The notes beneath the pieces were generated by a model. The model was not told where the DNA came from. It did not search any database and saw only the letters and a list, made by a program, of their open reading frames with translations. The translations under genes and the position numbers were made by a program. A DNA stretch of 64,000 bases, from the NCBI GenBank assembly GCA_002897655.1, contig BDTJ01000038.1, forward strand, positions 66,689-130,688, written 5' to 3'. Positions 36,283 to 63,716 of this stretch are shown here, one piece after another; position 1 is the stretch's first letter; each line of letters opens with the position of its first letter. This stretch comes from an archaeon BMS3Abin17. Lineage in GTDB: Archaea > Nanobdellota > Nanobdellia > Pacearchaeales > GW2011-AR1.

Positions 36283-37788
36283 TTGATTATGGGAAAAGTT
36301 TCTAGAAAAGTTGTATCAGAATCTCTTTGGAAGTTCGTTTCCACAATTATAACTAAAGCAGGCGCCTTGATTTTTGTTGTATTGCTTGCACGTTTTTTAA
36401 GACCAGAAGGTTTTGGCGTTTATAATCTTGCAATGGCAATAGTTTTGACTTTCACCTTACTTACTGATTTAGGAGTAAACAGGACTCTTCTAAGATATTT
36501 CTCCTTTTCATTAGGAAAAAAGGATAAATCCAAAGCAGTTGCTTATGCAAGATATCTTTTTAAGATTAAATTTCTTATAGTGACGGTATTTTCAATACTT
36601 TTCCTAGTTTTAGCATATCCTCTTTCATTTTGGGTTTTTAAAAAGCCAGAATTGTTTTGGCCGTTAATTATTCTTTCCATTTACTTAGTTGTTCTGTCTT
36701 TTGAGATGTTTTTTGAGTATTTCTTTTATGCTATCAAGAAAATTAAATTTCTCACAATAAAAGAAGTATTTTTGCAGGCACTTAGAATATCTTTTGCTCT
36801 TTTGGTTTTTGCCTTTTTAATGGGTTATAATAGAATCCTGGGAATTTTTGTAGCTGTCTTGTTTGCACACTTATTCACTTCTATCTTTTTATTTGTGCTT
36901 TTGAAGAAACATGTCTCTTTTATATTTGAAAAATCTGAATCAAAAATCAATAAGAAGAAGTTATTTAGTTTTCTGAAATATCTTGCTGTGGGGGGGATAT
37001 CTGCTATGTTCTTTGTTTATGTAGACATTATTATGCTCGGAATATTTCTCCCCTCAACTTATGTGGGATACTATTCCGCAGCAGTTGCTTTGGTTGGAGC
37101 CCTTATTTTTCTAATCCCCGCATCAAATGTGCTCCTCCCAGTATTTACCCAATTAAAAAAAGGCCAATTGAAAAATTCTTTTGATAAGGTTTTCAAATAT
37201 GTTTGCCTACTTTCTATCCCAGTAATCTTTGGCGCACTGGCAGTAGGGAGATACTTTATTCGTGTTTTTTATGGATATGAATATCTTCCATCCCTAATTC
37301 CCCTTTATTTTCTTGTTTTTTTGGTTTTTAGTGAAGTGTTAACAGGAACTCTTATATCTTTATTTTCTGCAAGGGAAAAACCACAGTATTTTGTCAAATA
37401 TCTCTTGATTTTTTCAGCATTAAATGTAATTTTGAATTATTTTTTAATCAAATTTTTCATTAATTTCTCTTTTGAATTAGCCATGGTTGGTGCCGCAATA
37501 GCAACTTTAACTACAAGATACTCTTACATGATTGCTTTAGGAATTATTTCAGTTAAAAAATTAAATATAAATTATAAACTAACTCACTTTGTAAAACCAC
37601 TAATTGCATCAATACTAATGTTCTTAGCAATATTCTATATAAATTACACTATAAAGGACATGACTTTGCTTCTTGGTCTGGGAGAGATTCTACTGGGAGT
37701 TTTTGTTTATTTTATATTAATGTTCTTAATGAAAGGATTCAGGAAAGAAGACTTCCAGATGATTAAGGACGCAATTAAAAACCTATAA
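36283..37788 (+). CDS. Polysaccharide/oligosaccharide flippase (Wzx-like, MOP superfamily)
   Basis: 501 aa, ~14 TM helices, polysacc_synt-like N-terminus. Confidence 0.7.
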   Translation: MIMGKVSRKVVSESLWKFVSTIITKAGALIFVVLLARFLRPEGFGVYNLAMAIVLTFTLLTDLGVNRTLLRYFSFSLGKKDKSKAVAYARYLFKIKFLIVTVFSILFLVLAYPLSFWVFKKPELFWPLIILSIYLVVLSFEMFFEYFFYAIKKIKFLTIKEVFLQALRISFALLVFAFLMGYNRILGIFVAVLFAHLFTSIFLFVLLKKHVSFIFEKSESKINKKKLFSFLKYLAVGGISAMFFVYVDIIMLGIFLPSTYVGYYSAAVALVGALIFLIPASNVLLPVFTQLKKGQLKNSFDKVFKYVCLLSIPVIFGALAVGRYFIRVFYGYEYLPSLIPLYFLVFLVFSEVLTGTLISLFSAREKPQYFVKYLLIFSALNVILNYFLIKFFINFSFELAMVGAAIATLTTRYSYMIALGIISVKKLNINYKLTHFVKPLIASILMFLAIFYINYTIKDMTLLLGLGEILLGVFVYFILMFLMKGFRKEDFQMIKDAIKNL

Positions 37789-37832
37789 GATTCCTCACAA
37801 AAACTTTTAAACCCCCTTAATATTTTAAAAAC

Positions 37833-38939
37833 ATGATAAAAAGAATAGCTTTTTTCACAGTGGGATTTGCTTTTAATAGGCTTGTTAGAATGAAGTTTTA
37901 TGAGAAGATTTTTCCAAAAAACGTGGAGATTTACTTATTTACTACAAATAAATACCTTGGGAAAGAAAAAGAGAATTATCAGCAAAGATATGAAAAAGAT
38001 TTAAAGAGAACCAAAGTCATTTATGCAGATTATAATCCTCTAAAATTATCTTTTACATTGCGGAAGCTTTGCAAAAAACACCAAATTGATAGGGTAATGA
38101 CTTTAGGCCACAATCTTGGGGGTTTCTTTTTATTGTTTGCAACATTGCTCCTAAAGACAGATTTTTGTATGAATGTTCTTGCAGCTGAATTTAATAGGTA
38201 TAAGATCACTGGAAGCATAAAAGAATCTGCCTTGCTTTTGGCAGATAATATTTACTTATTTGTTCTTATGCAATTTGCAAAAAAAGGCATGTTTACAGAC
38301 GCTCTTGATGCCAAAAGAGCCCCGACATTTTTCTTAAGAGAGAAGAATTCTATGAATCACTTGCCAGCACCAGTTAATACAGATTTATTTAAAATAAAGA
38401 ACAAAGTTAAATGCAGAAAAAAATTAAAATTACCTTTAAATAAAAAAATAATAATCTTTGTTGGGAGAATTGTATTCACAAAAGGGTCTAATTATCTCAA
38501 GGAGTTAATAAAAAAACATAAAGATATTCATTTTATAGTAATTGGAAGGATGATAGATAAAGATTTCTTGAATATGAAATGTAAAAATTTCCAGTGGATT
38601 GAAAAAAAGACATCAAAAGAATTGATTGATTATTATAATGCTGCTGACTTAAGTTTTTGCGTGAACAGGGAAGGGGGGGGAATTGGATTAACTTCAGAAG
38701 AGGCACTAGCCTGCGGAGCCCCAATTATTGTATCAAAATTATTTCGTTTAAAAAAATCCCCCGCACTTTATCAAGTTTCTTTGAATTTTGAGGAGATAGA
38801 TAAAGCTGTTATCGACTTTTTCAAATTATCTAAAGATGAAAGAAAGAAAGTATCAAAAATTTCCAGGAATTATGCAAAAGAAACATACTCTGATAAAGTT
38901 TTAAAAAACAAATATATTACAGCCTATCTGATAAAATAA
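37833..38939 (+). CDS. Glycosyltransferase family 1 (GT-B, GT4-like)
   Basis: 368 aa; C-terminal EGGGIGLTSEEALACGAPIIVS motif. Confidence 0.7.
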   Translation: MIKRIAFFTVGFAFNRLVRMKFYEKIFPKNVEIYLFTTNKYLGKEKENYQQRYEKDLKRTKVIYADYNPLKLSFTLRKLCKKHQIDRVMTLGHNLGGFFLLFATLLLKTDFCMNVLAAEFNRYKITGSIKESALLLADNIYLFVLMQFAKKGMFTDALDAKRAPTFFLREKNSMNHLPAPVNTDLFKIKNKVKCRKKLKLPLNKKIIIFVGRIVFTKGSNYLKELIKKHKDIHFIVIGRMIDKDFLNMKCKNFQWIEKKTSKELIDYYNAADLSFCVNREGGGIGLTSEEALACGAPIIVSKLFRLKKSPALYQVSLNFEEIDKAVIDFFKLSKDERKKVSKISRNYAKETYSDKVLKNKYITAYLIK

Positions 38940-39003
38940 TTTAATTCTCTTGTATGATTTATTCTCTATAAACTTATATACCTCAATTTCCCCCATTTTT
39001 GAT

Positions 39004-39522
39004 ATGGGAAAAAAATTAAATATTGGAAGTGGTAATGATTATAAAGAAGGGTTTGTGAATTTAGATTGTAATAAGAATCTGAAGGCAGATATTTATGCTA
39101 ATCTTGAAAAAAAATGGCCATTTCCAGATAATTCTTTTGATTATATTTATGCTAGTAATATCATAGAACATTTTGAAAATATACATTTTATTTGTGATGA
39201 ATTACACAGGGTTGCAAAGAATGGCGCTATTATTGAGATAATTGTTCCACATTATACTGGGAGACACGCTTTCAAAATTTTACAACATAAAACTTATTTT
39301 GGAATTGGAACTTTTGGAGATTATACTAAAGAATCTGTGGAGAGATTTTATCCAATAAAATTTGATGTTCTTAAGGAACGGCTTTGGTTTTTTAGACCCC
39401 GTTATAGACTCAGTTTTATAAATGGATTTTTTAATCTTAGTAAGAAATGGATGGCGATATCAGAAAGATTTAATCCATTCGGGTTTGATGAGATATATTA
39501 TAAATTAAAGGTAGTAAAATAA
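39004..39522 (+). CDS. Class I SAM-dependent methyltransferase
   Basis: Start trimmed to MGKKLNIGSGNDY... (motif I), DIYASNIIEHF motif. Confidence 0.6.
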   Translation: MGKKLNIGSGNDYKEGFVNLDCNKNLKADIYANLEKKWPFPDNSFDYIYASNIIEHFENIHFICDELHRVAKNGAIIEIIVPHYTGRHAFKILQHKTYFGIGTFGDYTKESVERFYPIKFDVLKERLWFFRPRYRLSFINGFFNLSKKWMAISERFNPFGFDEIYYKLKVVK

Positions 39523-39553
39523 TCTTTATAAACCCCTTTTTGTGTCCTTTCTT

Positions 39554-40435
39554 ATGAAATATCCAAAAGTATCGATTTTAATTATAAATTATAATGGGGG
39601 AGATAAGGTAATCCGGTGTTTGAATTCAGTGATGAAATTAGATTACCCTTCTTATGAGATTATAGTAATTGATAATGGAAGTAGTGACGGGAGTCAGGAA
39701 AAAATAAAAAAAGAATTTAGCCAAATAAAATTAGTGGAAAATAAGGAAAATTTAGGAAGTGTGGGGGCCCATAATCAGGGATTTAAACTTGCTAAGGGAG
39801 ATTTTATTCTTGGTCTTGATGATGACGCTGTCGCGTCTCCTTCTCTTTTAAAAAACCTTGTTAAAGTCGCATTATCTAATAATAAGATTGGAATTGTTGT
39901 TCCAAAAATATATTATTACAGCAAGCCAAATATTTTTAATAGCACAGGATTTTTTCTAAATCCAATAACAGGAAAGATGAAAGATCTTGGAATTGGAAAA
40001 GAAGATAAAGGTCAATTGGACTTTCAAAGGGAAATTGATTATGTGCCAAGTTCTATTATTTTAATCAAAAAAGAAGCATTAAAAACAGCAGGAGGAATGA
40101 ATGAGGATTATTTTGTTTATTACGAAGATTCAGATTGGTGCCTTAGAGTAAGAAATGCTGGATATAAGATAGTTTATACTCCAAATACAAAAGCATGGCA
40201 TGATTGCAAAACCCAGGGGGAGCTATCACCTTTTAGAGTATATCATTATACTAGGGGAAAAACTCTTTTTATGAAACAGAGCAGCACTCCACTCAATAAA
40301 TTTTTATTTATCTTATTTCACATATTTTTGTATTCTCCAGCAAGGATTTTTTCATTTATTTTAAAAGGAAAATTCAATCTAATAAAACCATATATTCAAG
40401 GAACTAAAGAAGGGTTATCCAGTAAAAGAAAGTAA
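39554..40435 (+). CDS. Glycosyltransferase family 2
   Basis: Start trimmed to MKYPKVSILIINYNGG...; DxD (LGLDDDA) present. Confidence 0.75.
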   Translation: MKYPKVSILIINYNGGDKVIRCLNSVMKLDYPSYEIIVIDNGSSDGSQEKIKKEFSQIKLVENKENLGSVGAHNQGFKLAKGDFILGLDDDAVASPSLLKNLVKVALSNNKIGIVVPKIYYYSKPNIFNSTGFFLNPITGKMKDLGIGKEDKGQLDFQREIDYVPSSIILIKKEALKTAGGMNEDYFVYYEDSDWCLRVRNAGYKIVYTPNTKAWHDCKTQGELSPFRVYHYTRGKTLFMKQSSTPLNKFLFILFHIFLYSPARIFSFILKGKFNLIKPYIQGTKEGLSSKRK

Positions 40436-40437
40436 TC

Positions 40438-41472
40438 TTACCACAGCCACCATTCTATGCTTGAATCATAGGCATGGTCGCAATTCTTGCAGACAGGAGA
40501 GGAAAAATCAAAATTTAAATGCTGTTTTTGCAGTTCTTTGAATGCTTTTGATTCTCTTAACTTTTTAATATCATCTCCTTTGATTAAGTTTCCGAATTTA
40601 ACTCTGGATTCATAATCTCTGCAGCAAACAACAAACTCTCCTTTTGAGTGAATTACAATGTGCGTCCATAAAGCAGAACAAGTCCATTGCCTTCTTCCGT
40701 AAGGGATGTTCTGTTCTCCGACATACTCTTTTAATGTTCCTGCCCAGTCTGATGGAAAATATGCTCGGACAGAATCAGAATATTTTCTCCAAAAATTAAC
40801 GAAATTTTGTGCCTTTTCTTCATTTTCTTTTAAAATCATCATAGAAATATTTGTTAATGCAGGCTTTCTTTTTTCCTTGTTGTTTTTTAAAAAATACAAA
40901 ACATTTCTTTTGGTATTCTCATAATCCAGACCCATAACTTTGTTATAATCTTCTTCTATGCCATTTATGGAAAAAGTGACTCTTCCAAGATTTGTTTTTA
41001 ATAATTCATCTGCCCTTTTTTTAGTTAATAACGCAGCATTGCTGTAAATATCCACTTTTAATTTAGGATATTTCTTATTAACATACTTTATTTTCTCTAT
41101 AACTCCCTTATCTGTGAAGGGTTCTCCAAATCCATTAATAGTGAGTCTTTTAATATCATAATTTTTCATAACATTATCCAAGATTTTCTTAAAATTCTCT
41201 AAACCCATAACACTTATCTTTCTCTTCATAGTCTTATGGGGGCACATTAGGCATTTTGCATTGCATGCATTAGTTGTCTCTATTTGCAGAATCTTCGGAG
41301 TTATTCTTTCTGCTTCTTTTTTTATTCTTTTCAGGTAAATTGCACCATATAATCTGGAGTTTACAATTCTGGACAAAGGCGATTGATAAAGGAGAAATTT
41401 CTTAAATGGTCTGGCAAATCCTTCTAATTTAAGATAATATCTTGTTTCCTGAATAAAGTTCTTGATATTCAT
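40438..41472 (-). CDS. Radical SAM protein with SPASM-like C-terminal cysteine cluster
   Basis: 344 aa; CNAKCLMCPH (Cx3Cx2C); C-terminal CSALW...VVCCRDY...CKNCDHAY. Confidence 0.75.
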   Translation of the reverse strand: MNIKNFIQETRYYLKLEGFARPFKKFLLYQSPLSRIVNSRLYGAIYLKRIKKEAERITPKILQIETTNACNAKCLMCPHKTMKRKISVMGLENFKKILDNVMKNYDIKRLTINGFGEPFTDKGVIEKIKYVNKKYPKLKVDIYSNAALLTKKRADELLKTNLGRVTFSINGIEEDYNKVMGLDYENTKRNVLYFLKNNKEKRKPALTNISMMILKENEEKAQNFVNFWRKYSDSVRAYFPSDWAGTLKEYVGEQNIPYGRRQWTCSALWTHIVIHSKGEFVVCCRDYESRVKFGNLIKGDDIKKLRESKAFKELQKQHLNFDFSSPVCKNCDHAYDSSIEWWLW

Positions 41473-41545: not shown

Positions 41546-42769
41546 ATGAGAATTGCACATATAAATATGTTTTATCTGCCTACTTTTGGAGGGGTGGAGC
41601 AGGTTATGTATGAGTTAACCAAAAAACAGGTTAAAGAAGGGCATGAGGTCCATGTTTTTTGCTGTGACTCAGATAAGAATAAGAGAATAAATGTAAAAGA
41701 AGAAATAATTGAAGGAGTTCATGTTCACAGGTTTCCTTACTGGTTTAGATTATCTCTAAATACATTTATCTGGCCTTCTTTATTGTGGAGGTTTAAGAGA
41801 TACACTCAAAACTCAAAGAATTTTGGTGCCACAAAATCCATGGCTGTTCGTTCGCACAGGCGCGGGGGCGAGGATTTTGTCGGCTTTGATATAATTCACA
41901 CTCATGTATCCGGGCATGCTTACATATTATTTGCAGGAATTCTGGCTAAATCAAAGGGCATAAAGCATATTCATACAACTCATTGTCCTTGGACAGATAT
42001 GTCTTTTAGACCCTGGATATTAAGGCCCTTTTTGTTCCTAAATGAGCTTTTTTTTAACAGATTATCCTTTAGCCTTATTGATAAGATTGTTTCAATAACT
42101 CCCTGGGAAAAAGAAACCCTGAAAAAGTTTACAGAAGAGGGGAAAATAAGAATTATAAAAAACGGAATGGACGATATTCTCTATAAAAAAATAAAAAAGA
42201 ATAATTTCAAGAAGAATCATAAGATAAAAGAGAAAAAATTAGTTTTGTTTTTCGGGAGATTAAATCCTACAAAAGGGCCTGAAAAATTAGCCCTTGCAGC
42301 AATTAACATCTCTAAAAAAAGAAAAGATATTGCCTTTGTTTGGGTTGGACCTGATGAAGGCAAAGCAGAAGAGGTCAAGAAATTAATCAAACCATACAAA
42401 AATATGAAATATCTTGGCCCTCTTAGAGGAAAAGAAAAAATAGCTGAGATGTATCAGGCATCAGATGTTTATGTTCTTCCAACCTATCGTGAAGGATTAC
42501 CTTTAACACTTTTTGAGGCAATGGCTTCTGGGTTGCCTATAGTAACTTCTCCTGTAAACGGGATTCCTTATGAAATGAAAGAACCAGAAAATGGATTTTT
42601 TTCTGATTACGGGGATATTGAGAGTTTAGAAACTAATATATTAAAAATTCTTGATAACCCTGAACTGGCAAGAAAAATCTCTCTTAATAACTTTAAAAAG
42701 GCAAAACAATATGAGTGGAATATTATTCATAAACAATATATGAAAGAGTATGAATCTCTTTTAAAATAA
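41546..42769 (+). CDS. Glycosyltransferase family 1 (GT4-like)
   Basis: 407 aa; FFGRLNPTKG...EGLPLTLFEAMASGLPIVTS. Confidence 0.75.
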   Translation: MRIAHINMFYLPTFGGVEQVMYELTKKQVKEGHEVHVFCCDSDKNKRINVKEEIIEGVHVHRFPYWFRLSLNTFIWPSLLWRFKRYTQNSKNFGATKSMAVRSHRRGGEDFVGFDIIHTHVSGHAYILFAGILAKSKGIKHIHTTHCPWTDMSFRPWILRPFLFLNELFFNRLSFSLIDKIVSITPWEKETLKKFTEEGKIRIIKNGMDDILYKKIKKNNFKKNHKIKEKKLVLFFGRLNPTKGPEKLALAAINISKKRKDIAFVWVGPDEGKAEEVKKLIKPYKNMKYLGPLRGKEKIAEMYQASDVYVLPTYREGLPLTLFEAMASGLPIVTSPVNGIPYEMKEPENGFFSDYGDIESLETNILKILDNPELARKISLNNFKKAKQYEWNIIHKQYMKEYESLLK

Positions 42770-55951: not shown

Positions 55952-56733
55952 AAAGAATTTTATTGACTTTTGATGTTGAAGAATTTGACCTTCCAAGAGA
56001 ATTTAATCAAAATATATCTGAAGAAGAGATGTATGAAATATCCAAAAATGGATTATTTGCAGTGATTAATTTGTTAGATAAGCACAGCATTAAAGCGACA
56101 TTTTTCACAACTTCTAATTTTGCAAAAAAATACCCTAAAATTATAAAAGACCTATCAAAGCAAGGGCATGAGATAGCGTGCCATGGTTATAGCCATTCAG
56201 ATGATTATCTTAACAGCTTATCGAATATAAAAATTGCCAAACAAGAGATTGAAAAAATAATAAAATCCAAGATAAACGGATTTCGGGCTCCGAGATTCAA
56301 GATAAAGAATATTTTAGGATTATCTGAGTTTGGATTTATTTATGATTCATCACTTCACCCAACCTGGATTCCTGGAAGATATATGAATTTATTCAAAAAA
56401 AGAAAGATACACAAGATAGAAGACATAACAGAGATTCCCCTTTCAACACTACCAATTCTCAGGCTGCCTATTTTTTGGCTTGCATTTAAGAATTTTGGAT
56501 TAAATTACGCTAAATTATTCACTAAAATAAACTTTTTATTCTCAGATTATACTATGTTATTCTTCCATCCTTGGGAATTTGAAAATCTAGAGAATTTTAG
56601 AATCCCTGAGTTGATTAAGGGGAAATCTGGGATCAGATTAATTAATCTATTAAAGAATTATATCTTATTCTGTAAAAAAAATAATTATTCTTTTGATACT
56701 ATCTCTAATTATTTCCAAAAATCCTTAAGATGA
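55948..56733 (+). CDS. Polysaccharide deacetylase (CE4/NodB-like)
   Basis: 261 aa; LTFDVEEFD... and ...GHEIACHGYSHSD motifs. Confidence 0.7.
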   Translation: MKRILLTFDVEEFDLPREFNQNISEEEMYEISKNGLFAVINLLDKHSIKATFFTTSNFAKKYPKIIKDLSKQGHEIACHGYSHSDDYLNSLSNIKIAKQEIEKIIKSKINGFRAPRFKIKNILGLSEFGFIYDSSLHPTWIPGRYMNLFKKRKIHKIEDITEIPLSTLPILRLPIFWLAFKNFGLNYAKLFTKINFLFSDYTMLFFHPWEFENLENFRIPELIKGKSGIRLINLLKNYILFCKKNNYSFDTISNYFQKSLR

Positions 56734-58163
56734 CCTATAACTGCCTTGACTCCCCTTAAATTAAATTTTAATTCTCCCCAACTATTTATGCTCTTTAATC
56801 TCGCAAATATATATTTTGGAGTTAGGAAGATAGTATATATCTTTCCACAGATAGCGGCAATTTCTTCTGGTTTAGAATTTTTTGTTTTCAAAACAGACTC
56901 TCTTTGATCAAATCTCTCATATTCAAGAGGATTAAACAAAAACCATTTTTTTTCTTTAGCTTCTTTATGTAAAGGAGTGCCTGGATAAGGGATAAGAACT
57001 GTTGCCTGAAGCAAATCTGCTTTTCCAGATTGCATTAATCTCTTAGCAAGTTTAAACGTGTTCAGAGCATCTTCTTTTGTCTCCCAAGGATAACCAACTA
57101 TCATTGTTAGGTGTGTTATTAATCCTGCACTTTTTGCCATCTTGCATCCATCTATAATATCTTTGATTTTTATACCTTTATTCAAATTATCAAGAGTTTT
57201 TTGATTCCCAGATTCAAGTCCAAATTTTAAGAGCCTAAAACCTGCTTTTTTCATCAGATTATAATCTTCTTGTTTTAATGCTCCAAATCTCATATTGCAG
57301 GAATATTTTATTTTCTTATTATACCCCCGTTCTATTAATCCCCTGCATAAATCTTTTAACCATTTTCCAATCATCAATGTTCCAGAATCATCAAATATTT
57401 CTTTTACATCATATTTATCAATCAACATTCCAATTTCATCCAAGACATTTTTAACACTTCTAACTCTAAATTTAGGATAAAGAGTTGGCCATGCACAGAA
57501 TTTGCATTTTCCCCACCAGCAATCTCTCCCAGACATAATATAAAAATAAGGTTTTCCTATGAGATTATATTCTTTTTCATATAATTTCCATTTTGTCAAA
57601 TCTCTGTCAGGGTAAGGAAGTTCATCCAGATTATGCTTCAACTCAAATTTACCAGAATTAATTATCTTGTTAGCTTTTCTATAGTATATTCCTTTTGGAA
57701 CTTTTTTTATTTTTTTATCTATCCAATCAGCAAGATCTGCGCTCATAAAATCAAAATCTCCCCCGCATAAAACAAAATCTACTTTGGAATTTTTCATTGT
57801 TTCTTCAGGAAGAGCAGTAACATGATCTCCAAGAATAGCAATTTTCATCATAGGAAAGATTTTCTTTAATCTATCTATTGTTTCCCAGTGCTGTTTTACA
57901 ACAGGAGTTTTGGTCTCAAAAATAAATAAGTCTGTTTTTTCTTTCTTAATAATTTCTACAAATTCTTCCCAGTGAATTTTTTCAGCAACACAATCAATCC
58001 AACTAACATCATGACCTTTGTTTTTAAGGAGTGTTGCAGAAGTTCCCATAACAACAGGATAAAAAAAACTAGGATTGCTAAACCACTGAAACTGCCTGTT
58101 TTGCCCGAGGGTGGCTATCCCTTTTTCTGATTCTGTAGGAGGATATCCTATAATGATTTTCAT
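56709..58163 (-). CDS. Cobalamin-binding (class B) radical SAM enzyme, variant cluster spacing
   Basis: 484 aa; B12-binding-like N-domain; DCWWGKCKFCAW (Cx4Cx2C rather than Cx3Cx2C). Confidence 0.7.
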   Translation of the reverse strand: MKIIIGYPPTESEKGIATLGQNRQFQWFSNPSFFYPVVMGTSATLLKNKGHDVSWIDCVAEKIHWEEFVEIIKKEKTDLFIFETKTPVVKQHWETIDRLKKIFPMMKIAILGDHVTALPEETMKNSKVDFVLCGGDFDFMSADLADWIDKKIKKVPKGIYYRKANKIINSGKFELKHNLDELPYPDRDLTKWKLYEKEYNLIGKPYFYIMSGRDCWWGKCKFCAWPTLYPKFRVRSVKNVLDEIGMLIDKYDVKEIFDDSGTLMIGKWLKDLCRGLIERGYNKKIKYSCNMRFGALKQEDYNLMKKAGFRLLKFGLESGNQKTLDNLNKGIKIKDIIDGCKMAKSAGLITHLTMIVGYPWETKEDALNTFKLAKRLMQSGKADLLQATVLIPYPGTPLHKEAKEKKWFLFNPLEYERFDQRESVLKTKNSKPEEIAAICGKIYTIFLTPKYIFARLKSINSWGELKFNLRGVKAVIGHLKDFWK

Positions 58164-58164
58164 A

Positions 58165-59031
58165 TTATCTTAAATTATTAAGGAATTTAATTGCATTTCT
58201 TCTTTCCCCTTGTGAAGGTATTTTTGAATCTCCCCAGTTTATATCAAGTTCAACTGTGAGATATCTTTCATATTGTTCCTTCTTTAAATAACCTATGAAC
58301 TCTTTAAAATCTATATTACCCTGTCCTAAAGGCAAGTGACTATCTTTATATCCTTTATTATCATGAATATGCATATCAAAAACATTAATTCCTCCAGAGA
58401 TAAGTTTCTTGTAAAAATCAATTGGCTTCATTATGGTGTTTGCATGCCCTATATCAAGAGTTACACCTATATTATCTAACCCTTTAGTCAAAAAGATTAA
58501 ATCATCTGGATAATAAGGAATTTCATTAACATGATTTCCAAGATGATCTGTAGTAGGGAGGTTTTCTATACCTAACTTAATATTCCTTAATTTCTTAGAT
58601 AATGATTCTATACTTTTCCTTAAAATTGTAAGATGTTTCTTATAGCTTTTATGATTTTCACAATAACCTCCATGAACAGTAATTAATTTTGCATCCAATC
58701 TTTTTGCTATATTATAAGTTCTCATAACTTCTTCTATACTAAATTCTCTTGTTTCTTCTTCCAGACTTGCTAAATCAAATTTTCTTCCCTTCAGGGTTTC
58801 TGGAGCTTTAGTGTAATGTAGCATAGGATGTAATATTAACTCAAAATCTTTTAAGCTTTTTATCCTCTCTATCTGCTGAGATGTTAATGCAGATGGTCCT
58901 GTATGTGGATATTGAAGTGAGATTTCTAGATGATTAACACCATCTTTTTTTAGATTTCTCACAAAACTAAATTCCTGCTCCCAGAATTTTTCAGGAAAAC
59001 TACCAATTTTGATAAAAGTTCCAATTTTCAT
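58165..59031 (-). CDS. Sugar phosphate isomerase/epimerase (xylose isomerase-like TIM barrel)
   Basis: 288 aa; ...ITVHGGY... and ...TLDIGHANT... metal-binding pattern. Confidence 0.65.
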   Translation of the reverse strand: MKIGTFIKIGSFPEKFWEQEFSFVRNLKKDGVNHLEISLQYPHTGPSALTSQQIERIKSLKDFELILHPMLHYTKAPETLKGRKFDLASLEEETREFSIEEVMRTYNIAKRLDAKLITVHGGYCENHKSYKKHLTILRKSIESLSKKLRNIKLGIENLPTTDHLGNHVNEIPYYPDDLIFLTKGLDNIGVTLDIGHANTIMKPIDFYKKLISGGINVFDMHIHDNKGYKDSHLPLGQGNIDFKEFIGYLKKEQYERYLTVELDINWGDSKIPSQGERRNAIKFLNNLR

Positions 59032-59043
59032 AATGATTTCTAA

Positions 59044-59952
59044 TTAAGAAGTATTATAAATGTTTCTTTCCCATTTATCTTTGCTATGGAGTATTTGCTC
59101 TCTTATCTTAACTTCCCAAACAGCCCATTTTACCCAGTCTTTCAAAGGAAGATAACCTTCTTTTGTTCCAAAGTCTTTTCTTTTAATTATATTTATCAGG
59201 CTTTTTGTGATACTCTCATCATCTTTAGTGTCTAAAAAACCAGAGTTGAATTCAATATTGGCTGTTCCTATATGCTCAATTGCATTTGAGTCATCATTTG
59301 CAATAAATGGAATACCAAATCTCTTAGAAATTTCCTTTGCTTCTTGATTTCTCTGTTTACTATAACTTCCAACTACAGGGGTCCATGAAGGACAGCTTGG
59401 AAGAGCAAGTTGCGCATTATGTTCTATTGCAGTCAATTTCCCTTCTCTAGCAAATTCTTCTGTTCTTTGTTTTCCTATCCCATGGTGATCCACACATAAG
59501 ACATGTTCTCCAATTCCAGGAAGTCCCTCTCCATCAAGATATTTAAAAGTTTCATTAAAACCCATTAAATTTGGAACTTTATTAGTCCCGAAAGTTAAAA
59601 TTTCATAAAGATTATCCTTTTCTTTTACTTTTATGCTCTGGCCATTAAGAAAGATTACTTTTTTATTACCCACATCTTTAGCAATTACAAAAGAATTTTC
59701 ACCAAGAGTATGCAATTCATATGGTCTTGATAATCTTTTAGCATGTTCTAATACAAATTGAAACCTGTCACTTACTCTTCCACTATTATCTTCATTATCA
59801 TACTCACTTGTAATTGCATAAACCTCTAAACCTTTTTCAAAACACTTTTCAGCAGCAACTTGCGCTATGTTTTTACCTGTTAAATCAAATCTTTCTAACC
59901 AGTAGGCACTAAAATCAGGATTAAAATGCCCGTGGAGGTTTGCTTTTGTCAT
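59044..59952 (-). CDS. Hypothetical metal-dependent hydrolase-like protein
   Basis: 302 aa; N-terminal ANLHGHF His-cluster; weak. Confidence 0.3.
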   Translation of the reverse strand: MTKANLHGHFNPDFSAYWLERFDLTGKNIAQVAAEKCFEKGLEVYAITSEYDNEDNSGRVSDRFQFVLEHAKRLSRPYELHTLGENSFVIAKDVGNKKVIFLNGQSIKVKEKDNLYEILTFGTNKVPNLMGFNETFKYLDGEGLPGIGEHVLCVDHHGIGKQRTEEFAREGKLTAIEHNAQLALPSCPSWTPVVGSYSKQRNQEAKEISKRFGIPFIANDDSNAIEHIGTANIEFNSGFLDTKDDESITKSLINIIKRKDFGTKEGYLPLKDWVKWAVWEVKIREQILHSKDKWERNIYNTS

Positions 59953-60369: not shown

Positions 60370-60382
60370 ATATTTCTCTAAA

Positions 60383-61282
60383 TTATATACTAACAAAATA
60401 TACCCCAAGAATTAGAATCATAATTGCTATTATCTTCAATAAGATTACTCCCTTGCTTGTTTCTTCTTTAAATATATGACTAAATTTAAATGAGAAGATT
60501 AAGGCAATTACTAAAACAAATAATGAGTGGAATCCCCCCAAGGAGAGTACAAGTGCTGCAGAACTTAAGCTTATTGCAACATTTCTTAATCCAAGCCCTA
60601 TAACTGAGATTACCCCCACAGAGATTATTAATATCTTGGCAATTAATTTTAGATTTTTGATATTTTTTATGCCTTCTTTTCCATACTCTTTAAAGAAAAT
60701 AAGAGTCATTGCTGAAAATAAAATTCCCATCTGGATAAAGAAAAAAGAACTCCAATAATCATAATTTTTAAACAGATAATCTGTACCTATAAAAAAACCA
60801 GCCAATATGAGATTCGTTAAAATCATATACCATAATCCTTTTGACATTTTTAGAAGTCCTTTACTCTTTTTTATGGAAATAATAGAGCTGCCTATGATAA
60901 GCAGAAAAAATCCAATATATTGGTTTGAACTTAATCTAAGATTAAGTATTACTATCGAGCCTATTAAAACCAAAACAGGACCAAGATTAAATAACGGGGC
61001 TATTCTAGAAACTTCCTCAAATTCTAGGGATCTCATATAAGGTAGAAGCCCATAAACATAAAATAATCCTGTAATAAAAGCAACAATTAAAAAGAAAAAC
61101 CCATAAAAATTAACTTCTTTAAATAAAATTATAAAAATTCCAATAAATCCTTGTATGAATGTGCTATAAAAGAGCCACATTTTTGAACTTTTAACATATT
61201 TCTTAATAGAAATACTATCTATTATAGAACCTATAGCAAACATTAAGAGGGCTGAAAGAGCAAATAAAACCCATAACATCAA
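60383..61282 (-). CDS. Multi-pass membrane protein (DMT/EamA-like transporter?)
   Basis: 299 aa, ~10 TM helices. Confidence 0.4.
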   Translation of the reverse strand: MMLWVLFALSALLMFAIGSIIDSISIKKYVKSSKMWLFYSTFIQGFIGIFIILFKEVNFYGFFFLIVAFITGLFYVYGLLPYMRSLEFEEVSRIAPLFNLGPVLVLIGSIVILNLRLSSNQYIGFFLLIIGSSIISIKKSKGLLKMSKGLWYMILTNLILAGFFIGTDYLFKNYDYWSSFFFIQMGILFSAMTLIFFKEYGKEGIKNIKNLKLIAKILIISVGVISVIGLGLRNVAISLSSAALVLSLGGFHSLFVLVIALIFSFKFSHIFKEETSKGVILLKIIAIMILILGVYFVSI

Positions 61283-61357
61283 TACACAAATAAAAATAAG
61301 TTTAAAAATTTACTTAAACATACGAATCTTTAAAAATAATATATTAATTGCCTTATA

Positions 61358-61837
61358 ATGGAATTTAAAGCCAGATTAGCCAGAGATGAAGATGTTCCAA
61401 AATTAGTAAAGATAATTCATGAAGAATATGGGGATGATATAGAATTCATGAAAAACAGACTTTCTTATTCTATAAAAAATAATTTTGTTTGTATTGTTGA
61501 AGATTTATCAAATGGAGATATTGCGGGAAGATTAATCTTTCAGGCTAAAGAAAATCCTTTTTTAGGAGTGGGAGAATTAGAGGCAGTTACAGTTAGTGAT
61601 AAATATCAAGAAAAGGGTGTTGGAACAAAATTATTGGAAGAATCAATTAAACAATCAGTGAATTATTTTGAAAGATACAACACAAAAATAAGAAAACTTT
61701 ATCTCATGACTCGCTCAAACAACGAAGTAGCAATAAAATTCTATGAAAAATTTGGCTTTAAAAGACAGAATACTATCGGAAAGATTTTTGTGGATAATGA
61801 ACCAGAGGAGTTAGTTATGCTCAAGAGTTTTGATTAA
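61358..61837 (+). CDS. GNAT family N-acetyltransferase
   Basis: 159 aa; ...VSDKYQEKGVGTKLLEESIK... acetyl-CoA binding motif. Confidence 0.7.
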   Translation: MEFKARLARDEDVPKLVKIIHEEYGDDIEFMKNRLSYSIKNNFVCIVEDLSNGDIAGRLIFQAKENPFLGVGELEAVTVSDKYQEKGVGTKLLEESIKQSVNYFERYNTKIRKLYLMTRSNNEVAIKFYEKFGFKRQNTIGKIFVDNEPEELVMLKSFD

Positions 61838-62784
61838 ACTTGTTCATGTTTCTTAAACAACCCATATAACCAGCCAATTCCGTAGGAGAAATGAGTTAGA
61901 ATTGTGGTGCATGTTGTAACAAGAGTCATTCTTAAATTTTCATGCAGACTTGTAAGGAATATTATTGATAAATAGATAAGGATGAAAATGAGAAATATAT
62001 TTCTAAAAAAAGAATTGAAAATTGAAATAAAAATTCCTTCTATAAACAAGATTACAAAGATGCCAAGTATTGAATAATATATCTTATCAAATGAAAAGTC
62101 TTTTTTTGAGAGCCAGGCAATATCCCTTCCATAAATAAACATCTGTTTAACATGCCCTTTAAGAGTGTCTCTTCTATGGTGATATACTCTTACATCTCCT
62201 GCATACAATACCTTATATCCTTTTTTTGAGCAAGTAAAGCAAAATTCTGAATCCTCTGCTGTTAAGAATCCTGGGTCATATTCAGAAGAAGCCTTTTTTC
62301 TGGATATATAATTGCAAGAGGGCAATTCTCTGACAAATCTGTTTTTTGCTATTTTATATCTTATATTTGCAAAACCTGCTGACCAAAAATTGCTTAGAAC
62401 ATAACCAGAGACTCTCTCCCAGAAATTTCCTTCAGGAGGGGTTAAGTTTGGACCTCCAACAATGCCTATCTTAGGATTATTAAAATATTTCATTGAATTT
62501 TTTAACCAATTTTTTTCAGGGTAAGCATCAGAATCAATAAACCCAAAAAATTCTCCTCTTGCTTTTTTCATCCCAATATTTCTCTTAAAGGCTGGTTTGA
62601 CTTTCCCTGTTTTTATTATCTTGATTTTCCTGTTTGAGAATTTCTTAATTGTTTTTTTATCTGCATTGTCAGGTAAAACTAAGATTCCAAAATCCTTATA
62701 ATTCAGATTTAAGCATTCTTTAATGCATTTTTCAGTCATTAAGTCAATCTCTTTGCAAGGGATTATAATTGAAACCTTTCTCAT
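61834..62784 (-). CDS. Glycosyltransferase family 2 with C-terminal TM helices
   Basis: 316 aa; VSIIIPCKE..., GFIDSDAYP (DxD). Confidence 0.75.
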   Translation of the reverse strand: MRKVSIIIPCKEIDLMTEKCIKECLNLNYKDFGILVLPDNADKKTIKKFSNRKIKIIKTGKVKPAFKRNIGMKKARGEFFGFIDSDAYPEKNWLKNSMKYFNNPKIGIVGGPNLTPPEGNFWERVSGYVLSNFWSAGFANIRYKIAKNRFVRELPSCNYISRKKASSEYDPGFLTAEDSEFCFTCSKKGYKVLYAGDVRVYHHRRDTLKGHVKQMFIYGRDIAWLSKKDFSFDKIYYSILGIFVILFIEGIFISIFNSFFRNIFLIFILIYLSIIFLTSLHENLRMTLVTTCTTILTHFSYGIGWLYGLFKKHEQV

Positions 62785-63716
62785 ATTCTTTTCTTATCTC
62801 TAAGGATTAAAAAGATTCCTATAATAGAAGGAAGTATACCTGAGATCAGCAAGCTTATTATTGACATTGAGAAAATCTTTGTTGCTCCTACACCTGCTAA
62901 TCCAAATAAACTTATAAGGACAGCCTCTCTTGTTCCAAGTCCGCTTATTGTAATAGGTAATTGCCCTACAAACGTCGCTATTGGCATTATTGCCAGAAAA
63001 TAAAAGAAAGAAACATCTATCCCCAAAGATAATCCCACAAAGAATACACTCATATATAGAACAATCCAGTTTAAGAAATTCAATAAGAAAAATAAGATAA
63101 AATACCTTTTTTTAGGCATATTCTCATAAAATGAATAAAATTCCCCCTTTAATTTTAATTTTATCTTTTCTGGGACAAATTTCCTATAAAATATACCCAA
63201 TATTGCTTTGCTTCTCTCTTTACTTCTAAAGACTATGAGCAAACTAACGAGTAACATGAAAACTAGTATAGCATAATATAGATAATTATTAGAGAGGATT
63301 TCTCTAAAGACAAATGAGAATATTGCTGCAAGAAGAACTAATGAGCATAAATCAATCATCTTGTCTAAAACATAATTACTAATTCCTTTTCCGATTTTTC
63401 CATCATTATATTTTTTTAAGTATTCTGCCCGTATAACTGCCCCAACTCTTGAAGGAGTTATAAATCCGTAAAACAGGCTGATCAAATTAATCTTAAATGC
63501 TTCTAAAAATCCTATTTTTGAGGTTTGCACTCTTGCAATGGAAAACCATTTTAGTGTTTGAGTTATAAAAGTTAGAAAAACAAGAAAGATGGCAATTAAT
63601 AAAAGATTAATATTAGCTTTACTTATCTCTTTTAAAACATTATATATATCTAATTTAAGTAGGATATAAATAAAAATAGATATACCTATTATCGGAAGAT
63701 ATTTTTTGAGATTCAT
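62781..63716 (-). CDS. Flippase-like / LPG-synthase-TM-like membrane protein (PF03706-like)
   Basis: 311 aa, ~8 TM; translationally coupled to downstream GT2. Confidence 0.5.
   Translation of the reverse strand: MNLKKYLPIIGISIFIYILLKLDIYNVLKEISKANINLLLIAIFLVFLTFITQTLKWFSIARVQTSKIGFLEAFKINLISLFYGFITPSRVGAVIRAEYLKKYNDGKIGKGISNYVLDKMIDLCSLVLLAAIFSFVFREILSNNYLYYAILVFMLLVSLLIVFRSKERSKAILGIFYRKFVPEKIKLKLKGEFYSFYENMPKKRYFILFFLLNFLNWIVLYMSVFFVGLSLGIDVSFFYFLAIMPIATFVGQLPITISGLGTREAVLISLFGLAGVGATKIFSMSIISLLISGILPSIIGIFLILRDKKRI

What the first reader, a model, noticed from the sequence alone, without database searches (positions are those of the whole stretch)
36283..63716. Very large surface-glycan locus with three cobalamin-dependent radical SAM enzymes, one SPASM radical SAM and two SAM methyltransferases
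About 27 kb of contiguous sugar-modifying genes are present. They include a Wzx-like flippase, GT1 (2 genes), GT2 (5 genes), GT9 and GT-C glycosyltransferases, a Dpm1-like synthase, an epimerase/dehydratase, a sugar isomerase, a deacetylase, a GNAT and an alkaline-phosphatase-like enzyme. Also present are three class-B (B12-binding) radical SAM enzymes (42894, 51343, 56709), a SPASM-type radical SAM (40438), a TylF-like O-methyltransferase and a class-I methyltransferase. Class-B radical SAM enzymes typically C-methylate or otherwise modify unactivated carbons. Three of them in one glycan cluster points to an unusually heavily C- and O-methylated or rearranged sugar, in an organism that most likely cannot make cobalamin itself. 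The third enzyme has a Cx4Cx2C cluster spacing rather than the canonical Cx3Cx2C.
Basis: partly seen in the sequence, partly recalled or inferred. Interest (0 to 1): 0.55.

Follow-up and report, generated by a model that had tools for sequence, protein, structure and literature searches.

The report
Conserved archaeal glycan locus, B12-radical enzymes
This is most of a large cell-surface sugar-building gene cluster shared by a whole lineage of tiny symbiotic (DPANN) archaea, and its three vitamin-B12-type radical enzymes are real and highly conserved, but their chemistry is unknown and cannot be assumed to be sugar methylation.

Summary
The gene content is largely as described. Three B12-binding radical SAM genes (42894, 51343, 56709), one SPASM radical SAM, two SAM methyltransferases, a Wzx-like flippase, GT1/GT4/GT2/GT9/GT-C transferases, a deacetylase, a GNAT and an AP-like enzyme are all present. 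There are four GT2 genes, not six. TylF lies just outside the stated start, and unrelated genes are embedded.

The locus is cut by the window end. On the source contig it continues into AglH-like and AglB/STT3 genes. The source is a Pacearchaeota/Woesearchaeota-type DPANN archaeon.

The whole 36-64 kb stretch is collinear with loci in related genomes. Those loci usually carry 2-4 B12-radical SAM genes, so three is normal for the lineage.

rSAM1 and rSAM3 are the most conserved genes of the locus (71-83% identity), and each is paired with a glycosyltransferase. rSAM3 belongs to an uncharacterised family found in both archaea and bacteria. That family has an invariant CX4CX2C motif, nearly always sits behind GT2 genes, and is sometimes split by inteins.

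No curated family threshold is met. The nearest characterised relatives are non-methylating: HpnJ for rSAM3 and BchE for rSAM2. Heavy C-methylation is therefore possible but unsupported.

The parts
28393..29343 (+). SDR epimerase/dehydratase. Upstream, variable part of the glycan region, outside the finding.
   Evidence: Pfam GDP_Man_Dehyd 175 bits, Epimerase 163 bits.
30726..31451 (-). CDP-alcohol phosphatidyltransferase.
   Evidence: Pfam CDP-OH_P_transf 44 bits.
31557..32288 (+). Nucleotidyltransferase.
   Evidence: Pfam NTP_transf_3. NCBIfam matches are weak only.
32341..34164 (+). Fusion of a nucleotidyltransferase with a 2-aminoethylphosphonate-type class-V aminotransferase.
   Evidence: Pfam NTP_transf_3 + Aminotran_5. 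NCBIfam PhnW-AepZ 305 bits, below the cutoff of 361. Absent from the 80 related loci.
35552..36238 (+). TylF-like O-methyltransferase. Lies outside the stated start.
   Evidence: Pfam TylF 61 bits.
36283..37788 (+). Wzx-like lipid-linked oligosaccharide flippase.
   Evidence: Pfam Polysacc_synt 95.6 bits.
37833..38939 (+). GT1-type glycosyltransferase.
   Evidence: Pfam Glycos_transf_1 54 bits. 32% identical counterpart in L096.
38950..39522 (+). Class-I SAM methyltransferase.
   Evidence: Pfam Methyltransf_11 35.6 bits.
39542..40435 (+). GT2 glycosyltransferase (GT2a).
   Evidence: Pfam Glycos_transf_2 102.8 bits.
40438..41472 (-). Radical SAM / SPASM enzyme with CX3CX2C.
   Evidence: Pfam Radical_SAM 66 bits, SPASM 39.4 bits. 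No NCBIfam cutoff met.
41546..42769 (+). GT4 glycosyltransferase, conserved partner of rSAM1.
   Evidence: Pfam Glyco_transf_4 + Glycos_transf_1. 71% identical and directly upstream of the rSAM1 orthologue in L096 and L098.
42894..44429 (+). B12-binding radical SAM enzyme 1 (rSAM1), CX3CX2C.
   Evidence: Pfam B12-binding 43.9 bits, Radical_SAM 55.9 bits. 71-83% identity in more than 120 protein clusters from Pace-/Nanoarchaeota. Best NCBIfam match only 85 bits.
44684..45403 (-). QueC. Embedded, not a glycan gene, syntenic in a relative.
   Evidence: Pfam QueC 138.8 bits. Same position in L098.
45670..46572 (+). GT2 glycosyltransferase (GT2b).
   Evidence: Pfam Glyco_tranf_2_3 57 bits. 43-60% identical counterparts in L096 and L098.
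47001..47426 (-). Nucleoside 2-deoxyribosyltransferase-like protein (embedded).
   Evidence: Pfam Nuc_deoxyrib_tr 67.8 bits. A gene of the same Pfam family occupies the same position in L098.
47487..48632 (+). GT9 (heptosyltransferase-like).
   Evidence: Pfam Glyco_transf_9 60.6 bits. NCBIfam heptosyltransferase I 75 bits, below cutoff.
48641..50341 (+). GT-C glycosyltransferase (PMT_2/ArnT-like).
   Evidence: Pfam PMT_2 49.8 bits. 22 of 26 close loci carry a counterpart, median 51% identity.
50342..51370 (-). SDR epimerase/dehydratase, overlapping the end of rSAM2.
   Evidence: Pfam Epimerase 151.9 bits. Best NCBIfam HpnA 172 bits, below cutoff 368.
51343..52818 (-). B12-binding radical SAM enzyme 2 (rSAM2), CX3CX2C.
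   Evidence: Pfam B12-binding 84.9 bits, Radical_SAM 76.6 bits. Orthologue group of about 57 clusters at 49% identity or more, then a gap to 37%. Best NCBIfam BchE 211 bits, below cutoff 481.
52815..53978 (-). Alkaline-phosphatase-superfamily enzyme (Phosphodiest).
   Evidence: Pfam Phosphodiest 69.6 bits. Present in 16 of 26 close loci.
53915..55165 (-). Conserved unknown 416-aa protein. The N-terminus resembles a pol-beta-type nucleotidyltransferase motif (my reading of the sequence only).
   Evidence: No Pfam, NCBIfam or PDB hit. Counterparts in 22 of 26 close loci. AlphaFold single-sequence model unusable, pLDDT 45.
55262..55951 (+). Dpm1/PpgS-like GT2 (GT2c).
   Evidence: Pfam Glycos_transf_2 68.6 bits. 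NCBIfam PpgS 44 bits and dolichyl-phosphate hexose transferase 43 bits, far below cutoffs.
55948..56733 (+). NodB-type polysaccharide deacetylase.
   Evidence: Pfam Polysacc_deac_1 59.3 bits. Paired with GT2c next to rSAM3 in 12 of 31 close loci.
56709..58163 (-). B12-binding radical SAM enzyme 3 (rSAM3), CX4CX2C.
   Evidence: Pfam Radical_SAM 71.8 bits, B12-binding 34.5 bits. NCBIfam HpnJ 194.7 bits, below cutoff 578. Orthologues at 72-80% identity in Pace-/Woesearchaeota and 48-63% in bacteria and other archaea. Motif invariant in the family.
58165..59031 (-). Xylose-isomerase-like TIM barrel (sugar-phosphate isomerase/epimerase family).
   Evidence: Pfam AP_endonuc_2 106.8 bits. Lies next to the rSAM3 orthologue in L018, L020 and L039.
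59044..59952 (-). PHP-like protein.
   Evidence: Pfam PHP_C 20.5 bits, below cutoff. Recurs near rSAM3 in 5 related loci.
60383..61282 (-). EamA-family transporter.
   Evidence: Pfam EamA 36.8 bits.
61358..61837 (+). GNAT acetyltransferase.
   Evidence: Pfam Acetyltransf_1 50.3 bits.
61834..62784 (-). GT2 with a hydrophobic C-terminus that looks like transmembrane helices (GT2d). Its relatives are the usual upstream partner of rSAM3.
   Evidence: Pfam Glycos_transf_2 58.6 bits. A GT2 of this cluster lies directly upstream on the same strand of the rSAM3 orthologue in 32 of 46 distant and 13 of 31 close loci.
62781..63716 (-). LPG_synthase_TM flippase-like membrane protein. AglH-like and AglB/STT3 genes follow beyond the window end.
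   Evidence: Pfam LPG_synthase_TM 145 bits. NCBIfam TIGR00374 119 bits, above cutoff. Source-contig continuation in L093.

Best explanation
WHAT IT IS
The region is the larger part of a lineage-wide super-locus for cell-envelope glycan assembly. It is anchored on the oligosaccharyltransferase AglB and belongs to a Pacearchaeota/Woesearchaeota-type DPANN archaeon.

LIKELY PATHWAY (inferred from family membership, not shown)
- An AglH-like enzyme, encoded just past the window end, primes dolichyl phosphate.
- Cytoplasmic GT1, GT4, GT2 and GT9 enzymes extend the lipid-linked glycan.
- A Wzx-like protein flips it, and AglB transfers it to protein.
- A second branch runs in parallel. A Dpm1-like GT2, with a NodB deacetylase in this genome, makes a polyprenyl-phosphate (amino)sugar. 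This is flipped (EamA or LPG_synthase_TM candidates) and used outside the cell by the PMT_2 GT-C enzyme.

THE THREE B12-RADICAL SAM ENZYMES
They are distant paralogues (25-29% identity) and conserved core components, not variable decorations. Each sits in its own module:
- GT4 then rSAM1.
- Unknown-416, then AP-like, then rSAM2, then SDR.
- GT2 gene(s), then rSAM3.

The most likely common logic is this. Each enzyme abstracts a hydrogen from an unactivated carbon of the sugar that its partner transferase has just attached to the lipid carrier. The outcome then depends on cobalamin.

Which reaction follows is not determined. C-methylation is the commonest precedent in the class. For rSAM3 the nearest characterised relative and the gene neighbourhood point instead to an HpnJ-type radical rearrangement of a lipid-linked (amino)hexose.

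MY ESTIMATES
- AglB-linked glycan locus: 0.85.
- The radical SAM enzymes act on glycan intermediates: 0.65.
- At least one is a C-methylase: 0.5.
- rSAM3 performs an HpnJ-like rearrangement: 0.25.
For: - Domain content.
- The source contig continues into Glycos_transf_4 and STT3.
- The same gene order occurs in GCA_040961015.1: AglB, AglH, GT2, GT2, rSAM3 (74%), LPG_synthase_TM, unknown, B12-rSAM, Phosphodiest, methyltransferase, PMT_2 (52%), GT2b (43%), then rSAM1 (74%), GT4 (71%), two more B12-rSAMs, SPASM, GT1.
- L098 repeats the window's order GT4, rSAM1, QueC, GT2b, a nucleoside-2-deoxyribosyltransferase-family gene, GT9, PMT_2.
- Median identity to close relatives: rSAM3 74%, SpoIIM 70%, AglH 60%, AglB 55%, LPG_synthase_TM 52%, PMT_2 51%. 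rSAM1 is 71-83% identical in more than 120 clusters.
- A GT2 (GT2d- or Dpm1-type) lies directly upstream on the same strand of rSAM3 orthologues in 34 of 46 distant loci (Omnitrophota, Desulfobacterales, Bathyarchaeia, Methanoperedens, Saccharibacteria and others) and 19 of 31 close loci.
- HpnJ is the top NCBIfam hit for rSAM3, full length, 62 bits above the next family.
- HpnJ is the only curated family reaching E<=1e-100 among 76 next-nearest representatives.
- HpnJ entries are the best functionally annotated tblastn hits in plasmids.
- A Burkholderia hpn cluster has the same Pfam-level set: hpnJ, a GT2 (hpnI), an LPG-synthase-domain protein and a deacetylase (hpnK).
- The fold of rSAM3 is class B.
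Against: - No biochemical or genetic data exist for any of the three families.
- No curated family threshold is met.
- The HpnJ parallel holds only at Pfam-family level. The deacetylase has a different fold family from HpnK (my recollection is that HpnK is YdjC-type). The GT2d-HpnI and LPG_synthase_TM-HpnL similarities are weak.
- The deacetylase and the LPG_synthase_TM gene are absent from most distant rSAM3 loci.
- In the window itself rSAM3 is separated from GT2d by about 3.7 kb of other genes.
- Cobalamin binding is inferred only.
- The AglB linkage relies on sequence outside the window.
Confidence: 0.6

Rival explanations
1. All three enzymes are cobalamin-dependent C-methyltransferases. 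Together with the TylF-like and class-I methyltransferases they produce an unusually heavily C- and O-methylated sugar.
For: - Most characterised class-B enzymes are methylases (reviews PMC13459092 and PMC12931638).
- The top structural match for rSAM3 is the methylase MgmA.
- rSAM2 scores 92-137 bits against several methylase models: Sden_1168, RiPP C-methyltransferase, PhpK, MgmA, KedN5, HpnR.
- SAM-dependent O-methyltransferases are present.
Against: - No methylase family threshold is met.
- Non-methylating BchE and HpnJ score higher for rSAM2 and rSAM3.
- Function cannot be read from sequence group in this class.
- Three B12-radical SAM genes is the lineage norm, so it does not mark an unusual sugar in this organism.
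Confidence: 0.25
2. The N-terminal Rossmann domains do not use cobalamin, as in AprD4. rSAM2 together with the overlapping SDR gene works like AprD4/AprD3: a radical 1,2-diol dehydration of a sugar followed by keto-reduction, giving a deoxy sugar. This would remove the B12 requirement in a B12-auxotrophic organism.
For: - AprD4 is the best solved-structure sequence hit of rSAM2 (76.6 bits).
- AprD4 is second by fold for rSAM3.
- rSAM2 overlaps the start of an SDR gene.
- Cobalamin synthesis is rarely complete in the lineage.
Against: - The AprD4 match covers only the radical SAM core, residues 170-398.
- The NCBIfam AprD4 score is 94 bits against a cutoff of 500.
- The Pfam B12-binding hit of rSAM2 is strong (84.9 bits).
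Confidence: 0.15
3. The radical SAM enzymes modify a lipid rather than the sugar. The target would be the dolichol/polyprenol carrier or scavenged membrane lipids, as with the archaeal GrsA/B and Gmm enzymes or the bacterial HpnP/R enzymes.
For: - Several known archaeal and bacterial class-B enzymes act on lipids.
- The best, though weak, NCBIfam hit of rSAM1 is a lipid-biosynthesis B12/radical SAM protein (85 bits).
- The locus holds an LPG_synthase_TM protein and a CDP-alcohol phosphatidyltransferase.
Against: - The enzymes are tightly adjacent to glycosyltransferases, not lipid-synthesis genes, across archaea and bacteria with different lipid types.
- No match to the curated Tes model or any other curated lipid-enzyme model comes near its threshold.
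Confidence: 0.1

Closest known systems
HpnJ with HpnI, HpnK and HpnL. This is the pathway from bacteriohopanetetrol-GlcNAc to GlcN to the cyclitol ether in hopanoid producers.
   Same: - B12-binding radical SAM enzyme of about 475 aa.
- 31% identity over 417 aa to rSAM3. rSAM3 is the best window match for HpnJ.
- A shared 'FC[LA]WP' sequence after the cluster motif.
- The neighbourhood contains a GT2, a deacetylase and an LPG_synthase_TM protein.
- The proposed substrate is a lipid-attached aminosugar.
   Different: - rSAM3 scores 195 bits against the HpnJ cutoff of 578.
- It has CX4CX2C instead of CX3CX2C.
- There are no hopanoid genes, and the host is an archaeon.
- The deacetylase here is NodB-type. 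HpnK is YdjC-type by my recollection.
- Most rSAM3 loci in other phyla lack the deacetylase and the flippase-like gene.
- HpnJ itself has never been characterised biochemically.
BchE (anaerobic Mg-protoporphyrin IX monomethyl ester cyclase) and the generic 'BchE-like' class-B group.
   Same: rSAM2 aligns to the BchE model over positions 2-403 of 497 at 211 bits. It has the same B12 + radical SAM architecture.
   Different: - The score is well below the cutoff of 481.
- There are no chlorophyll genes.
- rSAM2 sits in an operon with an AP-like enzyme, an SDR and an unknown protein.
Sugar-modifying class-B radical SAM methylases of natural-product pathways (GenK, GenD1, Fom3) and the structurally solved class-B enzymes TokK, CysS, TsrM, MgmA and OxsB.
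   Same: Same fold: Foldseek TM-score about 0.6, probability 1.0. Same presumed use of SAM and cobalamin on unactivated carbons.
   Different: - About 15% identity to the solved structures.
- GenK, GenD1 and Fom3 were not compared directly, because no sequences were available in the tools.
- Here the context is a primary cell-envelope glycan locus conserved across a lineage, not a secondary-metabolite cluster.
Archaeal N-glycosylation (Agl) loci, and three-component extracytoplasmic glycosylation systems (polyprenyl-phosphate GT2 + flippase + GT-C, for example ArnC/ArnD/ArnEF/ArnT).
   Same: - AglB/STT3 and an AglH-like gene adjoin the locus.
- A Wzx-like flippase, a Dpm1-like GT2, a NodB-type deacetylase, an EamA transporter and a PMT_2 GT-C enzyme are all present.
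- The three-component paradigm is described in PMC11127046.
   Different: My literature search found no paper that combines AglB, N-glycosylation, archaea and radical SAM. The presence of several conserved B12-radical SAM enzymes appears undescribed in the searchable library.

Membership tests
Class B (cobalamin-dependent) radical SAM enzymes | N-terminal B12-binding Rossmann domain (PF02310) at or above the Pfam gathering score. | tested here: met
   43.9, 84.9 and 34.5 bits against a cutoff of 32.1 for rSAM1, rSAM2 and rSAM3. The rSAM3 model superposes on MgmA, TsrM, OxsB, CysS and TokK.
Class B (cobalamin-dependent) radical SAM enzymes | Radical SAM core with a three-cysteine [4Fe-4S] motif. 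| tested here: met
   PF04055 at 55.9, 76.6 and 71.8 bits. CX3CX2C in rSAM1 and rSAM2. CX4CX2C in rSAM3, invariant in 120 of 120 close and 75 of 78 genome orthologues.
Class B (cobalamin-dependent) radical SAM enzymes | Actual binding and use of cobalamin. | not testable with these tools
   AprD4 shows that a Rossmann domain of this type can lack cobalamin. Purified protein is needed.
HpnJ (TIGR03471) | Score at or above the curated equivalog cutoff (577.6 bits). | tested here: not met
   rSAM3 scores 194.7 bits, rSAM2 153.2 and rSAM1 75.1.
HpnJ (TIGR03471) | Genomic association with hopanoid (shc/hpn) genes. | tested here: not met
   No such genes in the window or in the 80 related loci. Only Pfam-level analogues are present: a GT2, a deacetylase and an LPG_synthase_TM protein.
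BchE (TIGR02026) | Score at or above the curated cutoff (481 bits). | tested here: not met
   rSAM2 scores 211.3 bits, rSAM3 132.6 and rSAM1 73.2.
Characterised class-B methylase families in NCBIfam (PhpK, Sden_1168, HpnR, KedN5, MgmA/MJ_0865, RiPP C-methyltransferase) | Score at or above the curated cutoff of any of these models. | tested here: not met
   The best scores are rSAM2 at 137 bits (Sden_1168, cutoff 575) and 125 bits (RiPP C-methyltransferase, cutoff 282). All others are lower.
   TsrM matches by fold only, at about 15% identity. The review states that grouping does not predict the reaction.
AprD4 radical SAM diol dehydratase (NF033070) | Score at or above the curated cutoff (500 bits). 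| tested here: not met
   rSAM2 scores 94 bits, over the radical SAM core only.
Archaeal AglB-dependent N-glycosylation locus | STT3/AglB oligosaccharyltransferase and a dolichyl-phosphate priming transferase adjacent to the glycosyltransferases. | tested here: met
   On the source contig, Glycos_transf_4 (332 aa) and STT3 (944 aa) lie directly upstream of the LPG_synthase_TM gene, just beyond the window end. The same arrangement occurs in 28 of 31 close loci.
Three-component extracytoplasmic glycosylation (polyprenyl-P GT2 + flippase + GT-C) | A GtrB/ArnC/Dpm1-type GT2, a small flippase and a GT-C enzyme encoded together. | tested here: inconclusive
   A PMT_2 GT-C (49.8 bits), an EamA transporter and an LPG_synthase_TM protein are present. 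The Dpm1-like assignment of GT2c rests on hits of 43-44 bits against cutoffs of about 370.

The most novel reading that the evidence does not exclude
rSAM3 defines an undescribed family of B12-type radical SAM enzymes found in both archaea and bacteria. Its members carry a CX4CX2C motif, are coupled to GT2 genes and are targeted by inteins. In this reading the enzyme does not methylate. It rearranges a lipid-linked hexose or aminohexose, HpnJ/Cds-like, possibly into a carbocyclic cyclitol unit built into the core of N-glycans or envelope glycans. Together with rSAM1 and rSAM2, this would make envelope assembly in B12-auxotrophic DPANN archaea depend on cobalamin obtained from hosts or the community.
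Probability: 0.2. Interest if true: 0.75.

Novelty: new variant of a known kind. Interest (0 to 1): 0.5.

Why it matters
Class-B radical SAM enzymes are a very large group, and very few have an assigned reaction. Here, three distinct families of unknown function are fixed components of the AglB-linked glycan machinery of a whole DPANN lineage. One of them is widespread in anaerobic bacteria and other archaea and always sits behind GT2 genes.

This gives enzymologists a clearly defined target: a glycosyltransferase/radical SAM pair with a probable lipid-linked sugar substrate. At least one orthologue occurs in a cultured bacterium.

It also gives DPANN biologists a testable link between cobalamin scavenging and cell-envelope construction.

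It is not evidence for a uniquely hyper-methylated sugar in this particular organism.

Tried and rejected
- PDB sequence searches for the three radical SAM enzymes gave only remote hits that do not separate functions. Foldseek confirmed the fold and nothing more.
- The AlphaFold single-sequence model of the unknown 416-aa protein was unusable, pLDDT 45. PDB searches for it and for the AP-like enzyme were uninformative.
- I tested whether the window's GT2d, LPG_synthase_TM and deacetylase genes are orthologues of HpnI, HpnL and HpnK. Only weak or Pfam-level similarity was found, so orthology is rejected.
- I looked for GT2-radical SAM fusion proteins among the long family representatives. The extra length turned out to be inteins, not fusions.
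- I checked whether the aminoethylphosphonate-type genes upstream are part of the conserved system. They are absent from all 80 related loci, so they belong to a variable part.
- I looked for cobalamin synthesis or salvage genes in the rest of the window and found none. The rest of the genome could not be examined.
- Literature searches for AglB with radical SAM, and for DPANN with B12-binding radical SAM, found nothing on this system.
- The calditol synthase paper (PMC6305003) is not held in the library, so I could not check whether Cds is a B12-type enzyme or compare its sequence.

Full report
OBSERVATION

The window is about 31% G+C. It carries an intron-containing tRNA and an archaeal ribosomal-protein/RNA-polymerase operon. 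Exact-sequence look-ups place it on contigs of 'archaeon BMS3Abin17' / GCA_011050875.1 and on marine hydrothermal metagenome assemblies. Its closest relatives are labelled Pacearchaeota, Woesearchaeota or Nanoarchaeota.

This includes three proteins with B12-binding plus Radical_SAM domains, each above both gathering scores. It also includes one Radical_SAM/SPASM protein, a TylF-like methyltransferase and a class-I methyltransferase.

- There are four GT2 genes including the Dpm1-like one, not six.
- The TylF gene (35552-36238) lies just outside the stated interval.
- QueC, a nucleoside-2-deoxyribosyltransferase-like gene, EamA, a PHP-like protein, an LPG_synthase_TM protein and several unknown ORFs are interspersed.

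The CX4CX2C motif of the third enzyme is real, while the others have CX3CX2C. The three B12 enzymes are only 25-29% identical to each other.

TRUE EXTENT

Upstream, the glycan and head-group genes begin near 28.4 kb. They comprise an SDR, a CDP-alcohol phosphatidyltransferase, two nucleotidyltransferases (one fused to an aminoethylphosphonate-type transaminase) and TylF.

Downstream, the window ends inside the locus. On the source contig the LPG_synthase_TM gene (62781-63716, minus strand) is directly preceded by a Glycos_transf_4 (AglH-like) gene, a 944-aa STT3/AglB gene, SpoIIM and an IF-2B-family gene (locus L093).

COMPARATIVE CONTEXT

I fetched 80 genome loci around relatives of the third enzyme (rSAM3). 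I then called ORFs and matched them to the window's proteins.

In Pace-/Woesearchaeota the usual order is:
IF-2B, SpoIIM, AglB, AglH, LPG_synthase_TM, GT2 gene(s), rSAM3, then (in some genomes a divergent deacetylase plus Dpm1-like GT2), unknown-416, AP-like enzyme, one to three further B12-radical SAM genes, a small methyltransferase, PMT_2, GT2b.

In GCA_040961015.1 two overlapping loci extend this order. It continues through GT4 (71% identical) and rSAM1 (74%), two more B12-radical SAM genes, two SPASM enzymes and a GT1. This is collinear with window 36-64 kb read on the minus strand.

L098 reproduces the window's order GT4, rSAM1, QueC, GT2b, a nucleoside-2-deoxyribosyltransferase-family gene, GT9, PMT_2.

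Of 22 close loci of at least 20 kb, 19 hold two or more B12-radical SAM genes and 8 hold three or more within 10 kb of rSAM3. Three B12 enzymes is therefore the lineage norm.

CONSERVATION

- rSAM3 has 72-80% identical orthologues in more than 120 protein clusters.
- rSAM1 has 71-83% identical orthologues in more than 120 clusters.
- rSAM2 has a narrower orthologue group of about 57 clusters at 49% identity or more, followed by a gap to 37%.

Median identity to the close loci is 74% for rSAM3. The comparable figures are 70% (SpoIIM), 60% (AglH), 55% (AglB), 52% (LPG_synthase_TM) and 51% (PMT_2). These enzymes are core components, not variable tailoring genes.

THE rSAM3 FAMILY

Orthologues at 48-63% identity occur in Omnitrophota, Desulfobacterales, Lentisphaerae, Saccharibacteria, Actinomycetes, Spirochaetota, Bathyarchaeia, Methanoperedens, Methanosarcinales, Micrarchaeia and the isolate Fundidesulfovibrio agrisoli.

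A GT2 lies directly upstream on the same strand in 34 of 46 distant loci and 19 of 31 close loci. In the distant loci a Wzx-like gene lies within three genes of rSAM3 in 16 of 47, and an SDR epimerase in 13 of 47 (gene maps).

The motif RDCWWGKCxFC[AS]W (CX4CX2C) is invariant in the family. More distant relatives vary the first loop (CX3, CX6-7 or CX20), or have lost all three cysteines.

Several family representatives are split by inteins that carry LAGLIDADG domains. The insertions lie exactly within the cluster motif, at two different sites.

PLACEMENT AMONG KNOWN FAMILIES

No NCBIfam curated cutoff is met by any of the three enzymes.
- rSAM3: HpnJ 195 bits (full length), then BchE 133.
- rSAM2: BchE 211, ApyD 167, HpnJ 153, then methylase models at 92-137.
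- rSAM1: nothing above 85 bits.

Three further results point to HpnJ as the nearest characterised relative of rSAM3:
- Among 76 next-nearest 50%-cluster representatives of rSAM3, HpnJ is the only curated family reaching E<=1e-100 (6 members).
- In the plasmid collection the best functionally annotated hits are HpnJ genes.
- A Burkholderia HpnJ is 31% identical over 417 residues, and its best match in the window is rSAM3.

That Burkholderia cluster contains hpnJ, hpnI (a GT2), an LPG-synthase-domain protein and hpnK (a deacetylase). This is the same Pfam-level set that surrounds rSAM3 in Pacearchaeota.

The partner proteins are not demonstrably orthologous, however. Most bacterial rSAM3 loci also lack the deacetylase and the flippase-like gene.

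HpnJ is proposed, from genetics only, to contract lipid-bound glucosamine to a cyclitol ether. A similar radical route is proposed for calditol synthase and for PtmC.

The AlphaFold model of rSAM3 (pLDDT 76) matches MgmA, AprD4, TsrM, OxsB, CysS and TokK about equally. A recent review notes that non-methylating members cannot be told from methylases.

INTERPRETATION

The best-supported reading is a conserved, AglB-anchored envelope-glycan super-locus. Each B12-type radical SAM enzyme works with a partner glycosyltransferase or module on a carrier-linked sugar.

C-methylation is possible, and it is the commonest precedent in the class. It is not indicated by any specific evidence here.

For rSAM3 an HpnJ-like rearrangement is at least as consistent with the data. 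For rSAM2, which overlaps an SDR gene, an AprD4/AprD3-like deoxygenation is a further option.

The lineage is reported to lack complete cobalamin synthesis. No cobalamin genes occur in the window. The genome as a whole was not examined.

VERDICT

The boundaries, the GT2 count and the claim of unusualness are not.

The value of the finding lies in three uncharacterised, strongly conserved class-B radical SAM families tied to archaeal glycan assembly, one of which is widespread across prokaryotes.

Noticed in passing
Relatives of window 56709-58163: proteins P0361, P0362, P0363, P0366, P0367, P0392.: Orthologues of rSAM3 are interrupted by inteins (Intein_splicing plus LAGLIDADG_3 domains). The insertions lie exactly in the Fe-S cluster motif, at two different sites: at the first cysteine and before the third cysteine. 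The window's own copy is intein-free.
   Followed up: partly
Relatives P0372, P0375, P0380, P0387, P0400 (36-42% identity to window 56709-58163).: Some close relatives of the rSAM3 family have lost all three cluster cysteines, so they are presumably inactive paralogues. Others have CX6-7C or CX20C first loops.
   Followed up: no
Window 20381-20589 (+).: Rfam RT-16 RNA motif, 90 bits against a gathering score of 50. The neighbouring ORF 19424-20101 has no Pfam hit, and no reverse transcriptase was identified nearby.
   Followed up: no
Window 22265-22960 (+) and 24923-25765 (+).: Two free-standing LAGLIDADG-domain ORFs. One ends 9 nt before the 5S rRNA (22969-23084). The other lies beside an intron-containing tRNA (24705-24831).
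   Followed up: no
Window 30726-34164.: A CDP-alcohol phosphatidyltransferase, a nucleotidyltransferase, and a nucleotidyltransferase fused to a 2-aminoethylphosphonate-type transaminase (305 bits, cutoff 361). No PEP mutase is present in the window. This suggests activation of scavenged aminoethylphosphonate for a lipid or glycan head group. The genes are absent from the 80 related loci.
   Followed up: partly
Window 44684-45403 (-) and 47001-47426 (-).: QueC (7-deazaguanine pathway) and a nucleoside 2-deoxyribosyltransferase-like gene are embedded in the glycan locus. They occupy the same positions in a related genome (L098). Their role there is unexplained.
   Followed up: partly
Window 58165-59031 (-).: A xylose-isomerase-like TIM barrel sits 1 nt upstream of rSAM3. 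Besides sugar-epimerase hits it has a weak match (31 bits, cutoff 105) to the cobamide-remodelling phosphodiesterase CbiR. It recurs next to rSAM3 in three related loci.
   Followed up: no
Locus L091 342-1701 (source contig beyond the window end).: In one assembly the AglB gene is shortened (711 aa instead of 944) next to an ISL3-family transposase. This indicates strain-level disruption or an assembly variant of the oligosaccharyltransferase.
   Followed up: no
Window 185-1411 (+), 4234-5571 (-), 6497-7327 (+).: A trehalase, a TreT-type trehalose synthase and a tyrosine recombinase lie upstream of the ribosomal-protein operon.
   Followed up: no
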